Positions 15,001 through 51,000 of a DNA stretch of 64,000 nucleotides are shown here, piece after piece; the stretch's first letter is position 1; each line of letters starts with the position of its first letter. Location: NCBI RefSeq assembly GCF_003334765.1, contig NZ_QOWT01000012.1; one strand, written 5' to 3'. This DNA is from Escherichia coli (lineage in GTDB: Bacteria; Pseudomonadota; Gammaproteobacteria; Enterobacterales; Enterobacteriaceae). Made by a program: the position numbers.

Positions 15001-18000
15001 CCAACGCTTTTCAGCGCCGCAGCGAAATCGGTTTCGCTCAGATTTTGATAGGTAACCTGTTTGCCGCTCTGTTTGGTCAGCTCTGCCGCTAACTGTGTCA
15101 ACGTCCAGGCACTATCGCCCGCCAGCTCGTAAACCTTGCCTTCGTGACCGGCTTCGCTAATCACGCGTGCCGCAGCTGCCGCATAATCTGCCCGCGTTGC
15201 CGAGGCAATTTTGCCATCGCCCGCGGCACCGATAAATACGCCGTGCTCCAGTGCTGCCGGGGCGCTGGCGAGATAGTTTTCGGTGTACCAGCCGTTGCGC
15301 AGCAGGGTGTAAACGATGCCAGAATCAGCCAACATTTTCTCCGTCTCGATGTGCTCATCGGCGAGGCCGAGCGGAGATTTATCCGCGTGAAGCAGACTGG
15401 TATAAGCGATAAATTTCACGCCAGCCGTCTTTGCGGCATTAATAACATTACGATGCTGCGGGGCACGTTGACCCACTTCGCTGGAAGAGATCAGCAGTAG
15501 TTTTTCCACTCCCTGAAGTGCAGATGTCAGTGCGGCTTCATCGCCGTAGTCAGCCTGACGCACGGTAATGCCTTGTGCTGTCAGTGCCTGGGCTTTTGCC
15601 GGATTACGAACGATAGCCACTATTTGGCTGGCAGGAACCGTTTTCATCAAGGATTTAATAACATAGTGACCAAGTTGGCCAGTGGCACCAGTAATAGCGA
15701 TCATGGGAAGTCTCCATCGTTTTGTCTTGTGTTTAAATACGCTAACACCTAAACTTACTTTTAGTAAGTACGTACAAAAAGGTAAGTATGAAATGAGTCA
15801 GGTTAGCCTGTCACAACAACTGAAAGAGGGTAATCTCTTTGCGGAACAGTGCCCGTCGCGCGAGGTGTTGAAACACGTCACCAGCCGTTGGGGGGTGTTG
15901 ATTCTGGTGGCGCTACGCGAAGGTACTCATCGCTTTAGCGACCTGCGGCGCAAAATCGGTGGGGTGAGTGAAAAGATGCTTGCGCAGTCGTTACAGGCGT
16001 TAGAACAGGATGGTTTTCTTAACCGTATCGCGTATCCGGTGGTGCCGCCGCATGTGGAATATAGCCTCACGCCGCTGGGCGAGCAGGTGAGCGAAAAGGT
16101 TGCTGCACTGGCGGACTGGATTGAGTTGAATTTGCCCGAGGTGTTGGCGGTGCGGGATGAACGTGCGGCATAACTGCCGGCTGCGCTTATCCGGCCTACG
16201 GTTCATGACTTGTAGGGCGGATAAGATGCGCCAGCATCGCATCCGACAAAAGTGCCGGATGCGGTTGATGATTTATAGGCCGAAAAAGAAGTGTATTACT
16301 TACTCAAATCCACCTGATAAATCGCAAACCCGATATCATCGGTCGCGACTTTATTCATCGGATATTGCCCTTTCTCTTTAATAAACGCCGCGGCTTTATC
16401 TGATGGAGAGGTTTCGAAACGGATATCCAGTTTCTTATCGCCAGCTATCGGTGCTAAACGCCAGTTGTTATCTGCCGCCGGGTGAATTTCCCCCGCACGT
16501 TTCGACTCATCAGCAATCCACGCTGCCAGCACCGAGCGGTTCTCATCCGGTGAAGCAAAAGCGATATGGCTGTCGCCCGTACCGGCAAATTTGCCGCCGT
16601 AAGCGCGATAGTTATTGGTGGCAACCAGGAACATGGCGTTCGGATCAATCGGCTTGCCATTAAAGGTCAGGTTCTTAATCCTTTCCGCATTGGCATTAAC
16701 CATCTGGCACTCGCCGTCATAACGGGCAGGCTGGGTAACATCAATCTGATAATTCACACCATCAATCACATCAAAGTTATAGGTGCGGAAACCATCCCAG
16801 TTGATGAGTGACTGTGGTTTCGTGTTGTCAGGATCAATCTGGTTAAACTGTCCGGCGGAGCACTCCAGCCACTCTTTCACCTCTTTACCGCTGGCTTTCA
16901 CCACAATCAGCGTATTGGGGTAGAGATAAAGATCGGCGGCATTACGGAAGGTCAACTGGCCTTTTTCCACCTCCACATAGCTTGCCGGATCATTTTTGCG
17001 ACCACCAACTTTAAACGGTGCAGCAGCTGAAAGCACCGGCAGTTTTGCCAGATCCGGATCGCCCTGAATGTAATGCTCGACATACGCTTTTTGCGCGTTG
17101 TTCACCACCTGCACGGTCGGATCGTCCTGCACCAGCGCCAGATAGCTATACATATTGTCGGCGGATTTACCGATTGGCTTGCTGACGAACTGGCGTGTGG
17201 CATCGTGATCGGCTTTGAGTGTTTCTACCAGCTTGCTGTCTTCCGCCGCGAGGGATTTTTTATTGGCGATGTCGTAAATCGGCCGTGCTTCCGCTTTCGC
17301 CTGCGTCACCTGCCATTTACCGCTGTTATTACTGAGTTGTAAGTCGACCACCCCAAGATGATCGCCCCACATGCCCGGCATTACCGCCGGAACACCATTC
17401 AGCGTGCCTTTCGCGATATCAGCCCCTTCGATATCAGCAAAATCTTTACCTGGGAAAACGGCGTGAGCATGGCCAAACATAATGGCGTTAACGCCAGGAA
17501 TTTCACTGAGGTAATAAACTGAGTTTTCCGCCATCACTTTATACGGATCGGCAGATAGCCCGGAATGCGCCAGAACGACAACGACATCGGCACCTTTCTC
17601 GCGCATTTCAGGCACGTATTTGCGCACGGTTTCGGTAATATCATTCACCGTCACTTTTCCGGATAAATTAGCTTTATCCCAGCCCATGATTTGCGGCGGC
17701 ACGACGCCAATATAGCCAATCTTCAGCGTCTGTTTTTTTCCGTCTTTATCGACCACTTCGGTATCTTTAATTAAATACGGTGTAAACATTGGCTGTTTGG
17801 TTCTGGCGTCAATGACGTTGGCATTTACATAAGGGAATTTCGCTCCCGCCAACGCATTTTTCAGGTAATCCAGACCGTAGTTAAATTCATGATTGCCGAG
17901 TGTACCGACCGTATAATCCAGCGTATTCAGCGCCTTATAAACCGGATGAACATCACCTGCTTTTAATCCTTTCGCCGATATGTAATCGGCCAGCGGACTC

Positions 18001-48000: not shown

Positions 48001-51000
48001 CGTTCCACTAAAGCGGCAGATGCCCTGAAAGCGATGGTCAGCAATACTGCGACGGTGCTGCGCGTAATTAACGACAAAGGCGAAAATGGCTGGCTGGAGA
48101 TCCCGATCGACCAGCTGGTGCCCGGCGATATTATAAAACTGGCGGCGGGGGATATGATCCCGGCAGATTTACGTATCTTGCAGGCGCGGGATCTGTTCGT
48201 CGCTCAGGCGTCGTTAACCGGTGAGTCTCTGCCCGTAGAAAAAGCAGCTACCACTCGCCAGCCGGAGCACAGCAATCCGCTGGAGTGCGACACCCTGTGT
48301 TTTATGGGCACCACCGTGGTGAGCGGCACGGCACAAGCAATGGTGATTGCTACAGGTGCCAATACCTGGTTTGGTCAACTGGCGGGGCGTGTTAGTGAGC
48401 AGGAAAGCGAGCCGAATGCCTTTCAGCAAGGGATCAGCCGCGTCAGTATGCTGCTGATTCGCTTTATGCTGGTGATGGCTCCGGTGGTGCTGTTAATCAA
48501 TGGTTACACCAAAGGCGACTGGTGGGAAGCGGCACTGTTTGCGCTTTCGGTCGCGGTAGGCTTAACGCCGGAAATGTTGCCGATGATTGTTACCTCGACG
48601 CTGGCGCGCGGCGCAGTAAAGCTGTCGAAACAGAAAGTGATCGTCAAACATCTGGATGCTATTCAGAACTTTGGCGCAATGGATATTCTGTGCACTGATA
48701 AAACTGGCACCCTGACACAGGACAAAATTGTGCTGGAGAATCATACCGATATCTCCGGTAAAACCAGCGAACGCGTGCTGCATAGCGCGTGGTTGAACAG
48801 TCATTATCAGACCGGACTTAAAAACCTGCTCGATACAGCGGTGCTCGAAGGTACGGATGAAGAGTCAGCGCGCTCGCTGGCCAGTCGTTGGCAAAAAATC
48901 GATGAGATTCCGTTTGATTTCGAGCGTCGCCGGATGTCGGTGGTAGTGGCAGAAAATACCGAGCACCATCAGCTGGTTTGCAAAGGTGCATTGCAGGAAA
49001 TCCTCAATGTGTGTTCGCAGGTGCGTCACAATGGCGAGATTGTGCCGCTCGATGACATCATGCTGCGTAAGATTAAGCGGGTTACTGATACGCTGAATCG
49101 TCAGGGGCTGCGCGTGGTTGCGGTGGCGACGAAATACCTGCCAGCGCGTGAAGGAGATTACCAGCGGGCGGATGAATCCGACCTGATCCTCGAAGGATAT
49201 ATTGCTTTCCTTGATCCGCCAAAAGAGACAACTGCTCCGGCACTGAAGGCATTAAAAGCGAGTGGAATTACCGTAAAAATCCTTACTGGCGACAGTGAGT
49301 TAGTTGCAGCGAAAGTGTGCCATGAAGTGGGGCTGGACGCGGGAGAGGTGGTCATTGGTAGTGATATTGAAACGCTATCTGACGACGAACTGGCAAATCT
49401 CGCACAGCGCACCACGCTGTTTGCTCGTCTGACGCCGATGCATAAAGAACGCATTGTGACCTTACTGAAGCGCGAAGGGCATGTGGTTGGCTTTATGGGC
49501 GATGGTATTAATGATGCGCCCGCCTTACGCGCTGCGGATATCGGCATTTCTGTGGACGGCGCGGTAGATATTGCCCGTGAAGCGGCTGATATCATCCTGC
49601 TGGAAAAAAGCCTGATGGTGCTGGAAGAGGGGGTTATTGAGGGACGTCGCACTTTCGCCAACATGCTGAAATACATCAAAATGACGGCGAGCTCTAACTT
49701 CGGTAATGTGTTCAGCGTGCTGGTGGCGAGTGCTTTCTTGCCCTTCCTGCCGATGTTGCCGTTACACTTGCTTATTCAGAACCTGCTGTACGATGTGTCA
49801 CAGGTGGCGATCCCGTTTGATAACGTCGACGACGAGCAAATTCAAAAGCCGCAGCGTTGGAATCCGGCGGATCTGGGGCGCTTTATGATCTTCTTCGGAC
49901 CGATCAGCTCGATCTTCGATATTCTGACGTTTTGCCTGATGTGGTGGGTATTCCATGCCAACACGCCGGAAACGCAAACGCTGTTCCAGTCGGGATGGTT
50001 TGTGGTGGGCTTACTGTCGCAAACGCTGATTGTGCATATGATCCGTACCCGCCGTGTGCCGTTTATTCAGAGCTGTGCATCGTGGCCGTTAATGATCATG
50101 ACCGTGATCGTGATGATTGTCGGGATCGCATTGCCGTTTTCACCGCTGGCCAGTTATCTGCAGCTGCAGGCGCTGCCGTTAAGCTATTTCCCGTGGCTGG
50201 TTGCGATTCTGGCAGGGTATATGACGTTAACCCAGTTGGTGAAAGGGTTCTATAGCCGTCGTTACGGCTGGCAGTAAAGAATAAACTGGGCACGATAGCC
50301 CCGATTCAGATTGCAGACAAAGTGAGCGTTGTTCATGCCGGATGCGGCGTAAATGCCTTATCCGGCCTACAAATTCAATCAATTGCAGGAATCACGTAGG
50401 CCTGATAAGCGTAGCGCATCAGGCAATTTTGCGTTTGTCATCAGATTTAATCCGGGCATGATAGCCCGGATTTCCATCAAGATTAGCGACGAACAGCGAT
50501 CGCTTCGATCTCAATTTTTACGTCTTTCGGCAGACGGGCAACTTCAACGCAAGAACGTGCCGGGAAGGTGGCATTGTGTTCGGTGAAGAAGGCTTCGTAG
50601 GTAGCATTAACGGTTGCGAAGTCGTTCAGATCTTTCACAAACACGGTGGTTTTAACGATGTCGCCCACTTTCAGGCCTGCGGCTTCGACGATCGCTTTTA
50701 CGTTATCCAGCGACTGACGTGCCTGTGCAGCGACGTCTGCCGGTACTTCGCCCGTTTTCGGATTTACCGGGATCTGGCCGGAGGTGATGATCATATTGCC
50801 CAGATCAACGCCCTGTACGTAAGGACCGATAGCTGCCGGTGCATTTTCCGTCGCGATAGTTTTGCTCATGATTTCTCCTTTATTACAGCGGTAAAAAGTC
50901 TGGCTCATTATAGGGAGCCAGACTTTTATTACCAACCGCAATTAATTGGCCAGCACCACATTATGGGAAAACTCTTTTTCACAGTATTTGCATTTGAGCG

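What the first reader, a model, noticed from the sequence alone, without database searches (positions are those of the whole stretch)
16178..50426. Six REP/BIME clusters, all at gene 3' ends or between co-directional genes
Seen in sequence: REP-type palindromes (variants of GCCGGATGCGGCG...CGCCTTATCCGGCCTAC) occur at 16178-16275, 21828-21930, 30858-30958, 37098-37220, 40328-40462 and 50336-50426. None occurs in the accessory operon at 1-9773 or the AT-rich yjgL/yjgN segments, consistent with those regions having a different evolutionary history from the REP-bearing core.
Basis: seen in the sequence. Interest (0 to 1): 0.2.

Follow-up and report, generated by a model that had tools for sequence, protein, structure and literature searches.

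The report
Ordinary E. coli REP/BIME repeats
The six spots are textbook E. coli REP/BIME hairpin repeats sitting after genes, a long-known repeat family, and their absence from the "accessory" stretches says nothing reliable about those stretches' history.

Summary
The window is E. coli chromosome (100% identical to strain ML35 where tested). It carries six REP/BIME clusters at the stated coordinates: 12 recognisable palindromic units plus remnants. Six units are Y, three Z2 and three Z1-like. Ten of the 12 fold into the canonical bulged hairpin with an unpaired GTAG/CTAC foot. The units are massively repeated: a median of at least 39 places per genome in all 5,426 complete E. coli genomes. 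All six clusters are extragenic, three between convergent genes, three between co-directional genes and none in the 13 divergent spacers.

Sites 2 and 6 are BIME-1 type (Z1 + L linker + Y). Sites 3, 4 and 5 are Y+Z2 (BIME-2 type). Site 1 is decayed.

The evolutionary inference is not supported:
- Absence from the accessory segments is not significant (p≈0.15).
- The operon has no spacer over 52 bp apart from its promoter region.
- Its TetR remnant is in 5,402 of 5,426 genomes.
- K-12 has a BIME next to yjgM.
- The REP sites themselves vary between strains.

Already known; low interest.

The parts
16175..16199 (-). Site 1, unit 1a: short Y/Z1-like palindromic unit. It starts 2 nt after the ytfH stop codon and is degenerate (5-bp deletion relative to other strains). 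In all parts, strand means the strand that reads 5'-GTAG.
   Evidence: other strains have TGCCGGATGCGCTGCGCTTATCCGGCCTAC; dG -7.6, z -0.95.
16212..16248 (+). Site 1, unit 1b: Z2-like 37-nt unit, GTAGGGCGGATAAGATGCGCCAGCATCGCATCCGACA.
   Evidence: dG -15.2, z -3.25.
16253..16264 (-). Site 1: half-unit remnant TGCCGGATGCGG (left arm of a Y unit).
21829..21858 (-). Site 2: Z1 unit (short Z) of a BIME-1. It lies downstream of msrA and upstream of paeA.
   Evidence: dG -13.3, z -3.1.
21859..21893 (.). Site 2: L linker, gcagtccttgcaatatattgaatttggacgatttt. ATTCAATATATTG on the minus strand matches the IHF consensus WATCAANNNNTTR at 12 of 13 positions.
   Evidence: the linker alone recurs at a median of 10 places per genome (up to 29) in all 5,426 genomes. 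Rfam ES036 hit at 21851-21893. The IHF consensus is from memory, and binding was not tested.
21894..21928 (+). Site 2: Y unit with a weakened stem (CCTGGT / ATCTGG).
   Evidence: dG -10.0, z -1.4.
30858..30867 (.). Site 3: left-arm remnant TGCCTGATGC, 9 nt after the ytfQ stop codon.
30874..30907 (+). Site 3: Y unit in the ytfQ-ytfR intercistronic spacer.
   Evidence: dG -19.5, z -3.0. Rfam naRNA4 hit at 30877-30955, 67.3 bits (gathering score 59.5).
30922..30958 (-). Site 3: Z2 unit. It ends 29 nt before the ytfR start codon.
   Evidence: dG -14.9, z -5.4.
37115..37149 (+). Site 4: Y unit identical to the consensus (35 of 35), 26 nt after the mpl stop codon.
   Evidence: dG -20.9, z -4.6; naRNA4 hit at 37118-37195, 86.2 bits.
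37161..37198 (-). Site 4: Z2 unit.
   Evidence: dG -22.0, z -6.8; the Y+Z2 pair recurs at a median of at least 39 places per genome.
37206..37217 (+). Site 4: half Y unit CCGCATCCGGCA, a 12-nt direct repeat of 37138-37149. Strains M25631H and JNE25 have one unit here instead of two and a half.
40327..40364 (.). Site 5: two internally deleted unit remnants, GCCTGGCTTATCAGTCC and GTAGGCTGCATCCGGTA, next to the nrdG start codon.
40370..40406 (-). Site 5: Z2 unit. Its foot is CTGG here and CTAC in most other strains.
   Evidence: dG -21.9, z -6.7.
40421..40455 (+). Site 5: Y unit, 22 nt downstream of the nrdD stop codon on the transcribed (minus) strand.
   Evidence: dG -21.3, z -4.9. It matches 31 of 32 positions of the REP oligonucleotide crystallised with TnpA_REP (PMC3479197).
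50336..50370 (-). Site 6: Y unit of a BIME-1-type element between mgtA and ridA.
   Evidence: dG -19.5, z -4.5.
50371..50395 (.). Site 6: linker homologous to the L linker of site 2 but 10 nt shorter.
   Evidence: alignment of site 2, site 6 reverse complement and the K-12 rraB-yjgM element.
50396..50425 (+). Site 6: Z1 unit identical to the consensus (30 of 30).
   Evidence: dG -12.9, z -3.3.
50282..50306 (+). Left copy of a 25-nt imperfect direct repeat (21 of 25 identical) that brackets the roughly 141-bp BIME-1 composite of site 6. It contains a small hairpin.
   Evidence: The repeat is also present in Escherichia sp. E1V33.
50448..50472 (+). Right copy of the 25-nt direct repeat (hairpin ATCCGGGC-atgata-GCCCGGAT), at the ridA 3' end.

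Best explanation

Composition:
- Sites 2 and 6 are BIME-1 type: Z1 and Y units in inverse orientation around the conserved L linker, with conserved outer motifs.
- Sites 3, 4 and 5 are BIME-2 type Y+Z2 pairs with decayed extra units.
- Site 1 is a decayed atypical cluster.

Inferred mechanism, taken from the family's published biology and not shown for these six sites:
- The units are co-transcribed into the 3' UTR or intercistronic RNA of the upstream gene.
- Their stable hairpins block 3'->5' exonucleases and act as partial, Rho-dependent terminators.
- This raises expression of the upstream gene relative to the downstream one. Here that would favour the binding protein YtfQ over the YtfRT-YjfF membrane/ATPase parts, and the reductase NrdD over its activase NrdG.
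- In convergent spacers they would mark the 3' ends of both transcripts.
- At the DNA level, BIME-2 Y units are gyrase sites and the BIME-1 L linker is an IHF site.
- The family is spread and reshuffled by the single-copy TnpA_REP (RAYT) transposase and by recombination between units, which would explain the strain-to-strain differences seen here.
For: Identity:
- Sequence matches to Y/Z1/Z2 occur only at the six sites.
- The foot motif is enriched 15 against 2.1 expected.
- The units form the canonical bulged hairpin with an unpaired GTAG/CTAC foot.
- Rfam naRNA4 and ES036 hit above their gathering scores.
- The L linker recurs at a median of 10 places per genome.
- All six clusters are extragenic, at 3' ends.
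- Unit lengths and BIME definitions agree with PMC8266576 and PMC3333891.

Mechanism, from the literature:
- REP325 acts as both a stabiliser of the upstream transcript and a partially Rho-dependent terminator, and REP-containing tandem gene pairs show upstream-biased expression (bioRxiv 10.64898/2026.03.23.713779).
- Gyrase cleaves BIME-2 Y units (PMC6379681).
- The BIME-1 L linker carries an IHF site, and TnpA_REP cleaves and recombines BIMEs (PMC3333891, PMC3479197).

Local support:
- The simple scan finds no hairpin-plus-T-run terminator in any REP-bearing spacer.
- Five REP-less convergent spacers each have a hairpin followed by a T-rich tract. Two were found by the scan and three by reading the sequence.
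- Variation between strains is of the kind described for BIMEs.
Against: No expression, RNA 3'-end, IHF or gyrase data were available for these six sites. The same preprint stresses that REP effects depend on context and that terminal REPs do not uniformly lengthen mRNA half-lives. Units 1a and 2b are degenerate and may be inert. At site 2 the BIME lies more than 170 nt upstream of paeA and next to the STnc450 region, so its effect on paeA is unclear. The IHF match is 12 of 13 positions to a consensus recalled from memory.
Confidence: 0.9

Rival explanations
1. REPs are missing from the accessory operon and the yjgL/yjgN segments because those regions arrived by horizontal transfer from REP-free donors. 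On this view REP presence marks the old core.
For: There is no REP in 1-9773, around yjgL (55271-57072) or around yjgN (59214-60655) in this window. yjgL and yjgN are AT-rich, with GC of 0.30-0.40. The full operon is found in only 1,448 of 5,426 genomes.
Against: - The absence is not significant (p = 0.149).
- The operon has no spacer a REP could use, apart from a divergent promoter region.
- The TetR remnant is present in 5,402 of 5,426 genomes, which points to ancestral presence followed by deletion.
- K-12 carries a BIME beside yjgM.
- REP sites 4, 5 and 6 are themselves polymorphic.
- BIMEs are enriched in strain-specific loops (PMC1187871).
Confidence: 0.1
2. The clusters are dedicated small-RNA genes (naRNA4/CssrE-like and ES036/CssrF-like) that act in trans, for example with HU to compact the nucleoid.
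For: Rfam hits above the gathering score at sites 3 and 4 (RF02564) and site 2 (RF02751). PMC4550694 reports that most REPs are transcribed and that naRNA4 acts with HU.
Against: These Rfam families are built from REP sequence, so any Y+Z2 pair scores against them. The same 84 nt occurs at least 39 times per genome. A 2026 preprint finds no nucleoid effect of REP325 or naRNA4, only local 3'-UTR effects (10.64898/2026.03.23.713779). No promoter-like site flanks the clusters.
Confidence: 0.05
3. The clusters are purely selfish or decaying mobile-element debris (REPIN-like) with no host function. They are tolerated only where insertion is harmless, that is after genes.
For: Many units are truncated or internally deleted. 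Sites are gained, lost or replaced among strains. RAYT-dependent mobility is established for the family (PMC3333891, PMC3116915).
Against: Sites 2, 3 and 5 keep their main units in most of the eight strains compared, and the site 5 form covers 5,000 of 5,426 genomes. The site 6 element predates the split from Escherichia sp. E1V33. Experiments elsewhere show regulatory effects of REPs. This view does not exclude the main explanation, because a selfish origin and a local regulatory effect can coexist.
Confidence: 0.3
4. The palindromes are ordinary intrinsic terminators or chance GC-rich hairpins, not members of a repeat family.
For: They lie at gene 3' ends and form stable hairpins.
Against: No T-run follows them. 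They share sequence with each other and with dozens of copies per genome. Shuffles never reach the observed motif count.
Confidence: 0.01

Closest known systems
E. coli REP / palindromic units of types Y, Z1 and Z2 (Higgins 1982; Stern 1984; Gilson 1984, 1991)
   Same: The sequence, the GTAG foot, the bulged imperfect palindrome of 29-37 nt, the extragenic 3' location and the high copy number all match.
   Different: Nothing essential differs. Several units here are decayed: a 5-bp deletion in unit 1a, half units at sites 1, 3 and 4, and a CTGG foot at site 5.
BIME-1 (also called RIP or RIB; Z1 + L linker with IHF site + Y, single copy)
   Same: Sites 2 and 6 have Z1 and Y in inverse orientation around the L linker, with conserved outer motifs. 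The composite is about 140-150 bp and occurs as a single copy per locus. A BIME-1-type element is present or absent between strains at rraB-yjgM, and the whole site 6 spacer is replaced in some strains.
   Different: The site 6 linker is 10 nt shorter. The IHF core differs from the consensus by one base at both sites. Site 6 is bracketed by a 25-nt direct repeat that I do not know to be part of the family's description.
BIME-2 (Y + Z2 in tandem copies; gyrase sites; REP325/naRNA4 is the 12-unit example)
   Same: Sites 3, 4 and 5 have Y+Z2 composition with short linkers. Unit number varies between strains (O157 has an extra unit at site 5; site 4 has one unit in some strains). Sites 3 and 4 give Rfam naRNA4 hits.
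   Different: Each site has only one intact Y+Z2 pair plus remnants, and there is no long tandem array.
malE-malF and hisJ-hisQ intercistronic REPs (stabilisers of the upstream cistron in ABC-transporter operons; from memory)
   Same: ytfQ (periplasmic binding protein) - REP - ytfR (ATPase) has the same gene order and REP position. nrdD-REP-nrdG follows the same logic: an abundant upstream product and a catalytic downstream one.
   Different: There are no expression data for these two operons. The effect is inferred by analogy.
REPINs and RAYT (TnpA_REP) systems
   Same: Inverted REP pairs separated by a spacer, thought to be mobilised by a single-copy Y1 transposase.
   Different: No RAYT gene is in the window. 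The 'transposase' ORF that replaces site 6 in strain M25631H is not a RAYT.

Membership tests
E. coli REP / palindromic unit | Conserved GTAG tetranucleotide at the foot of the palindrome | tested here: met
   Eleven of 12 units have GTAG/CTAC. The Z2 unit at 40370-40406 has CTGG in this strain and CTAC in other strains.
E. coli REP / palindromic unit | Imperfect palindrome of about 29-37 nt that forms a stem-loop with a conserved internal mismatch | tested here: met
   ten of 12 units fold as a 7-bp stem, a 2x2 or 1x1 internal loop, a 4-5-bp stem and a loop, with dG from -12.9 to -22.0 and z from -3.0 to -6.8. Two units are degenerate.
E. coli REP / palindromic unit | Sequence belongs to the Y, Z1 or Z2 class | tested here: met
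   Searches show 88-100% identity for the eight full-length matches (two more units are 90%; the two site 1 units match only in part). They were cross-checked by the Rfam RF02564 hits, by the published REP oligonucleotide in PMC3479197 (31 of 32 positions) and by the unit lengths in PMC8266576. My Z1/Z2 labels were swapped and are corrected.
E. coli REP / palindromic unit | High copy number, dispersed around the chromosome | tested here: met
   median 39 places per genome (capped at 40 pieces per record) in all 5,426 genomes; median 35 places for the 24.6-kb query.
E. coli REP / palindromic unit | Exclusively extragenic, at 3' ends and not in divergent promoter regions | tested here: met
   3 convergent, 3 co-directional and 0 of 13 divergent spacers. 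In this window alone p = 0.04 among spacers of at least 60 bp, and 0.19 among all gene junctions.
E. coli REP / palindromic unit | Bound and cleaved by TnpA_REP (RAYT) | not testable with these tools
   This is a biochemical property.
BIME-1 | One Z1 and one Y unit in inverse orientation, as a single copy | tested here: met
   Sites 2 and 6.
BIME-1 | Conserved long L linker | tested here: met
   The site 2 linker recurs at a median of 10 places per genome. The site 6 linker aligns to it with a 10-nt deletion.
BIME-1 | IHF binding site in the L linker | tested here: inconclusive
   ATTCAATATATTG (site 2) and ATTCAATCAATTG (site 6) each match WATCAANNNNTTR at 12 of 13 positions. The consensus is from memory, and binding cannot be tested here.
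BIME-2 | Composed of Y and Z2 units | tested here: met
   Sites 3, 4 and 5.
BIME-2 | Tandem amplification, with copy number varying between strains | tested here: inconclusive
   Each site has only one intact pair plus remnants. There is some variation in unit number: O157 has 32 extra bp at site 5, and M25631H and JNE25 have a single unit at site 4.
BIME-2 | Gyrase binding and cleavage at Y units | not testable with these tools
   Only the literature is available (PMC6379681). The supplementary site lists were not checked for these loci.
naRNA4 (Rfam RF02564) | Match to the covariance model above the gathering score | tested here: met
   86.2 bits at site 4 and 67.3 bits at site 3 (gathering score 59.5). 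This reflects REP homology, not a separate function.
RAYT (TnpA_REP), considered for the ORF that replaces site 6 in strain M25631H | Y1 HUH transposase fold and family match | tested here: not met
   no NCBIfam hit. By my reading, the 151-aa product looks like an N-terminal helix-turn-helix followed by hydrophobic segments, and the gene is AT-rich.

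The most novel reading that the evidence does not exclude
The 25-nt imperfect direct repeat that exactly brackets the roughly 141-bp BIME-1 composite between mgtA and ridA (50282-50306 and 50448-50472) may be a target-site duplication. It would have arisen when a whole BIME-1 inserted into a bidirectional terminator hairpin. That would be a footprint of how BIME-1 elements move, and it would not match the duplication-free mechanism (from memory) of IS200/IS605-type Y1 transposases.
Probability: 0.08. Interest if true: 0.3.

Novelty: already known. Interest (0 to 1): 0.06.

Why it matters
It matters little beyond annotation quality.
- The six clusters should be labelled REP/BIME, not sRNA genes, even though Rfam's naRNA4 and ES036 models hit them.
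- They should not be used as markers of 'core' against 'accessory' DNA, because they are among the most variable parts of these spacers.
- Natural alleles with and without REPs exist at nrdD-nrdG (409 genomes without), mgtA-ridA and mpl-yjgA. These are ready-made material for testing the published stabiliser/terminator model.

Tried and rejected
- A fuzzy-regex REP scan timed out and was replaced by blastn-short.
- A fixed-spacing palindrome pattern gave three hits. None was a true unit in register, because loop lengths differ between Y, Z1 and Z2.
- The K-12 RefSeq record in this collection lists no REP features, so annotation could not be transferred.
- I first used the Z1/Z2 names the wrong way round. 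I corrected them from PMC8266576 and PMC3333891.
- The 'transposase' ORF that replaces site 6 in strain M25631H was checked as a possible RAYT and rejected.
- I looked for an 'empty' mgtA-ridA site to test the target-duplication idea. All sampled E. coli have either the filled site (span 381 bp) or the ORF allele (span about 741 bp).
- The one genome-contig scan found only one non-coli relative, Escherichia sp. E1V33. It is also filled, with both repeat copies.
- Bachellier et al. 1997 (PMC1207841), which compared BIME-1 filled and empty loci, is not held.
- Candidate REP-like hits at 33507, 59765 and 60624 and the hairpin at 57033-57060 were examined and rejected as coding sequence or plain terminators.

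Full report
WHAT THE WINDOW IS. Positions 16000-22000 are 100% identical to E. coli strain ML35 and are present in all 5,426 complete E. coli genomes searched. Transferring the ML35 annotation gives the following gene order. First comes a TRAP-transporter / CoA-transferase / TetR operon (1-9773). Then ytfB, fklB, cycA, ytfEF, qorB, ytfH, cpdB, cysQ, ytfJ, ytfK, paeA, msrA, tamAB, ytfP, ppa, ytfQRT-yjfF, fbp and mpl. Then yjgA, pmbA, cybC, nrdGD, treCBR, mgtLA, ridA, pyrIBL, yjgH, bdcAR, tabA and a yjgL-like gene. Last come argI, rraB, yjgM, yjgN (a pseudogene), valS and holC.

CHECKING THE OBSERVATION. Reading the six regions shows REP-type palindromes at every stated position. The foot motif TTATCMGGCCTAC, with up to 2 mismatches, occurs 15 times against 2.1 +/- 1.5 in shuffles, and no shuffle reached 15. 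Twelve of the 15 hits are in the six clusters.

The other three hits are not REPs. Those at 33507 and 59765 lie in coding sequence. The one at 60624 is the GGCCGGAG/CTCCGGCC hairpin between yjgN and valS. The hairpin at 57033-57060 between yjgL and argI is also not a REP.

Ten of the 12 units fold into the family's hairpin, with dG from -12.9 to -22.0 kcal/mol and z from -3.0 to -6.8. The fold is a 7-bp stem, a small internal mismatch, a 4-5-bp stem and a loop, with the GTAG/CTAC foot left unpaired. Units 1a (16175-16199) and 2b (21894-21928) are degenerate. Rfam's REP-derived families score above their gathering thresholds: naRNA4 at sites 3 and 4, and ES036 on the site 2 linker.

ANATOMY. 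The names follow PMC8266576 and PMC3333891: y is 35 nt, z1 is 29 nt and z2 is 37 nt. BIME-1 is z1 + L linker + y as a single copy, with an IHF site in L. BIME-2 is z2 + y with short linkers in tandem copies.
- Site 1 (ytfH>|<cpdB): a short unit with a 5-bp deletion, a Z2-like unit and a half unit. This is a decayed atypical cluster.
- Site 2 (downstream of msrA, upstream of paeA): Z1, a 35-nt L linker and Y, so a BIME-1. The linker alone recurs at a median of 10 places per genome.
- Site 3 (ytfQ>|>ytfR): a remnant, Y and Z2.
- Site 4 (mpl>|<yjgA): a remnant, a Y unit identical to the consensus, Z2 and a half Y.
- Site 5 (nrdD>|>nrdG on the minus strand): Y, Z2 and two internally deleted remnants.
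- Site 6 (mgtA>|<ridA): Y, a linker and Z1.

Site 6 aligns with site 2 over about 150 nt, including conserved outer motifs, but its L linker is 10 nt shorter. It is therefore also BIME-1 type.

LOCATION. Of the 56 gene junctions in the window, the six clusters occupy 3 of 13 convergent, 3 of 30 co-directional and 0 of 13 divergent junctions. Within this window the bias is weak: p = 0.04 among spacers of at least 60 bp, and 0.19 among all junctions. It agrees with the genome-wide figures of about 60% convergent, 40% tandem and 1% divergent (10.64898/2026.03.23.713779).

The simple scan finds no hairpin-plus-T-run terminator in any of the six REP-bearing spacers. Five REP-less convergent spacers each carry a hairpin followed by a T-rich tract. 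The scan found two, at 20270-20294 and 34511-34534. I read the other three directly from the sequence: rraB/yjgM, yjgN/valS and yjgL/argI.

I fetched the region from K-12, O157:H7, 25DN, WP8-S17, N44, M25631H and JNE25-003 and aligned the six spacers.
- Site 1 differs by small deletions inside unit 1a.
- Site 2 has the same length in all strains, with point changes only.
- Site 3 has a truncated Z2 in two strains.
- Site 4 is a single unit in M25631H and JNE25 (82-bp spacer against 155 bp). 4,858 of 5,426 genomes reach 80% coverage of the longer form, and sampled genomes near the bottom of the ranking span 73 bp less.
- Site 5 has an extra 32 bp in O157. In WP8 and JNE25 it is replaced by an unrelated 179-bp spacer containing a CCCTCTCCC...GGGAGAGGG hairpin. 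This comes with another nrdG allele and an adjacent relBE pair. 5,000 genomes have the REP form and 409 the alternative.
- Site 6 is replaced in M25631H by an AT-rich 151-aa ORF annotated 'transposase'. It has no NCBIfam match and is not a RAYT. 4,677 genomes have the full BIME form.

In the other direction, K-12 has a decayed BIME-1-type element in the rraB-yjgM spacer that this window lacks. It is present in 1,050 of 5,426 genomes. K-12 also has a BIME in the holC-pepA spacer, which begins just beyond the window's right edge.

The absence of REPs from 1-9773 and from the yjgL/yjgN segments is real in this window, but it is not informative.
- It is not significant: 0 of 11 eligible junctions against 6 of 32, p = 0.149.
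- The operon's co-directional spacers are at most 52 bp, TetR overlaps ytfB, and the only long spacer is a divergent promoter region.
- The operon is accessory by distribution, with the full form in 1,448 genomes. However, its TetR 3' fragment is present in 5,402 of 5,426 genomes, and K-12 and O157 keep it as ytfA. The simplest reading is an ancestral operon that was later deleted.
- REPs are not markers of stable core DNA. The sites here vary, K-12 has a BIME beside yjgM, and published work places two thirds of BIME DNA in strain-specific loops (PMC1187871).

HOW IT MOST LIKELY WORKS. What is shown here is the family identity, the hairpins, the copy number, the position relative to genes and the polymorphism. 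The rest is inferred from the family's published biology.
- The units are transcribed as part of the upstream gene's 3' UTR or intercistronic RNA. Their hairpins block 3'->5' exonucleases and cause partial Rho-dependent termination (10.64898/2026.03.23.713779).
- At site 3 this would favour the periplasmic binding protein YtfQ over the downstream ABC components. From memory, the malE-malF and hisJ-hisQ operons have the same arrangement.
- At site 5 it would favour NrdD over its activase NrdG.
- At the DNA level, BIME-2 Y units are gyrase cleavage sites (PMC6379681), and the BIME-1 L linker carries an IHF site (PMC3333891). Sites 2 and 6 match the IHF consensus at 12 of 13 positions. That consensus is from memory and binding was not tested.
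- Spread and reshuffling of the family is attributed to TnpA_REP (PMC3333891, PMC3479197, PMC8266576). No such gene lies in the window.

ONE LOOSE END. The site 6 BIME-1 composite (about 50307-50447) is bracketed by a 25-nt imperfect direct repeat, 21 of 25 identical, and each copy holds a small hairpin. Site 2 has no such repeat. I found no empty-site allele in E. coli. The one related species recovered, Escherichia sp. E1V33, is also filled with both copies. Whether the repeat is a target duplication or a duplicated terminator remains open.

VERDICT. The finding is a correct recognition of a repeat family described since the 1980s. The added evolutionary reading is not supported. Novelty: already known. 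Interest: low.

Noticed in passing
window 50282-50306 and 50448-50472: A 25-nt imperfect direct repeat (21 of 25 identical), each copy containing a hairpin, exactly brackets the roughly 141-bp BIME-1 composite between mgtA and ridA. It may be a target duplication or a duplicated terminator. It is also present in Escherichia sp. E1V33. No empty site was found.
   Followed up: partly
window 63984-64000 (compare L010 11300-11420): The window ends just as the holC-pepA spacer begins. In K-12 this spacer holds a seventh BIME (Z2 + Y) starting about 10 nt beyond the window edge.
   Followed up: yes
window 58665-58709 versus L010 5892-5974: K-12 and 1,050 of 5,426 genomes carry a decayed BIME-1-type element between rraB and yjgM. 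This window has only a 45-bp spacer with a plain terminator.
   Followed up: yes
window 9126-9773 (TetR) and 1-9125: The full TRAP / CoA-transferase operon is in 1,448 of 5,426 genomes. Another class shares only positions 3096-9700. The TetR 3' fragment is nearly universal: it is ytfA in K-12 and is interrupted by an IS200/IS605-family element (IS609-like) in O157 and other strains. This suggests an ancestral operon eroded by deletion.
   Followed up: partly
L006 37322-37500 and L009 (nrdG-nrdD spacer): In 409 genomes the REP cluster of site 5 is replaced by an unrelated 179-bp spacer. Its 46-nt CCCTCTCCC..GGGAGAGGGTTAGGGTGAGGGG part recurs elsewhere in genomes. From memory it resembles the Box C repeat, which I did not test. 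A relBE pair and a different nrdG allele accompany it.
   Followed up: partly
L008 45209-45774: In strain M25631H the mgtA-ridA spacer holds an AT-rich ORF of 151 aa annotated 'transposase'. By my reading it has an N-terminal helix-turn-helix and hydrophobic segments. It has no NCBIfam match and replaces the BIME.
   Followed up: partly
window 16174-16295, 37089-37243 and 50278-50482 versus 20270-20294, 34511-34534, 57033-57060, 58680-58709 and 60608-60632: Convergent spacers with REPs show no hairpin-plus-T-run terminator in the scan. Convergent spacers without REPs each have a hairpin followed by a T-rich tract. The two look like alternative occupants of the same spacer type.
   Followed up: partly
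window 18240-18362 (+): Rfam ES239 sRNA hit (154.5 bits) in the divergent cpdB-cysQ spacer.
   Followed up: no
window 21714-21771 (-): Rfam STnc450 hit (73.2 bits) between the site 2 BIME and the paeA start. It probably belongs to the paeA 5' leader.
   Followed up: no
window 47372-47487 (+): Magnesium riboswitch / mgtL leader upstream of mgtA (Rfam RF01056, 121.9 bits).
   Followed up: no
window 55393-56904 and 56880-56930: The yjgL-like gene is 503 aa here against 604 aa in K-12. Its GC falls to 0.30, and it ends in an AT-only tandem repeat (tatatgaatatata...).
   Followed up: no
window 59379-60602: yjgN is split by an in-frame stop at 59835-59837. It is annotated as a pseudogene with an internal stop in ML35.
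   Followed up: no
window 19158-19170 and 28673-29051: This strain lacks ytfI (cysQ and ytfJ overlap) and chpSB (a 379-bp ytfP-ppa spacer). K-12 and O157 have both, and strain 25DN has esiB at the ytfP-ppa position. These are small indel hot spots unrelated to REPs.
   Followed up: no
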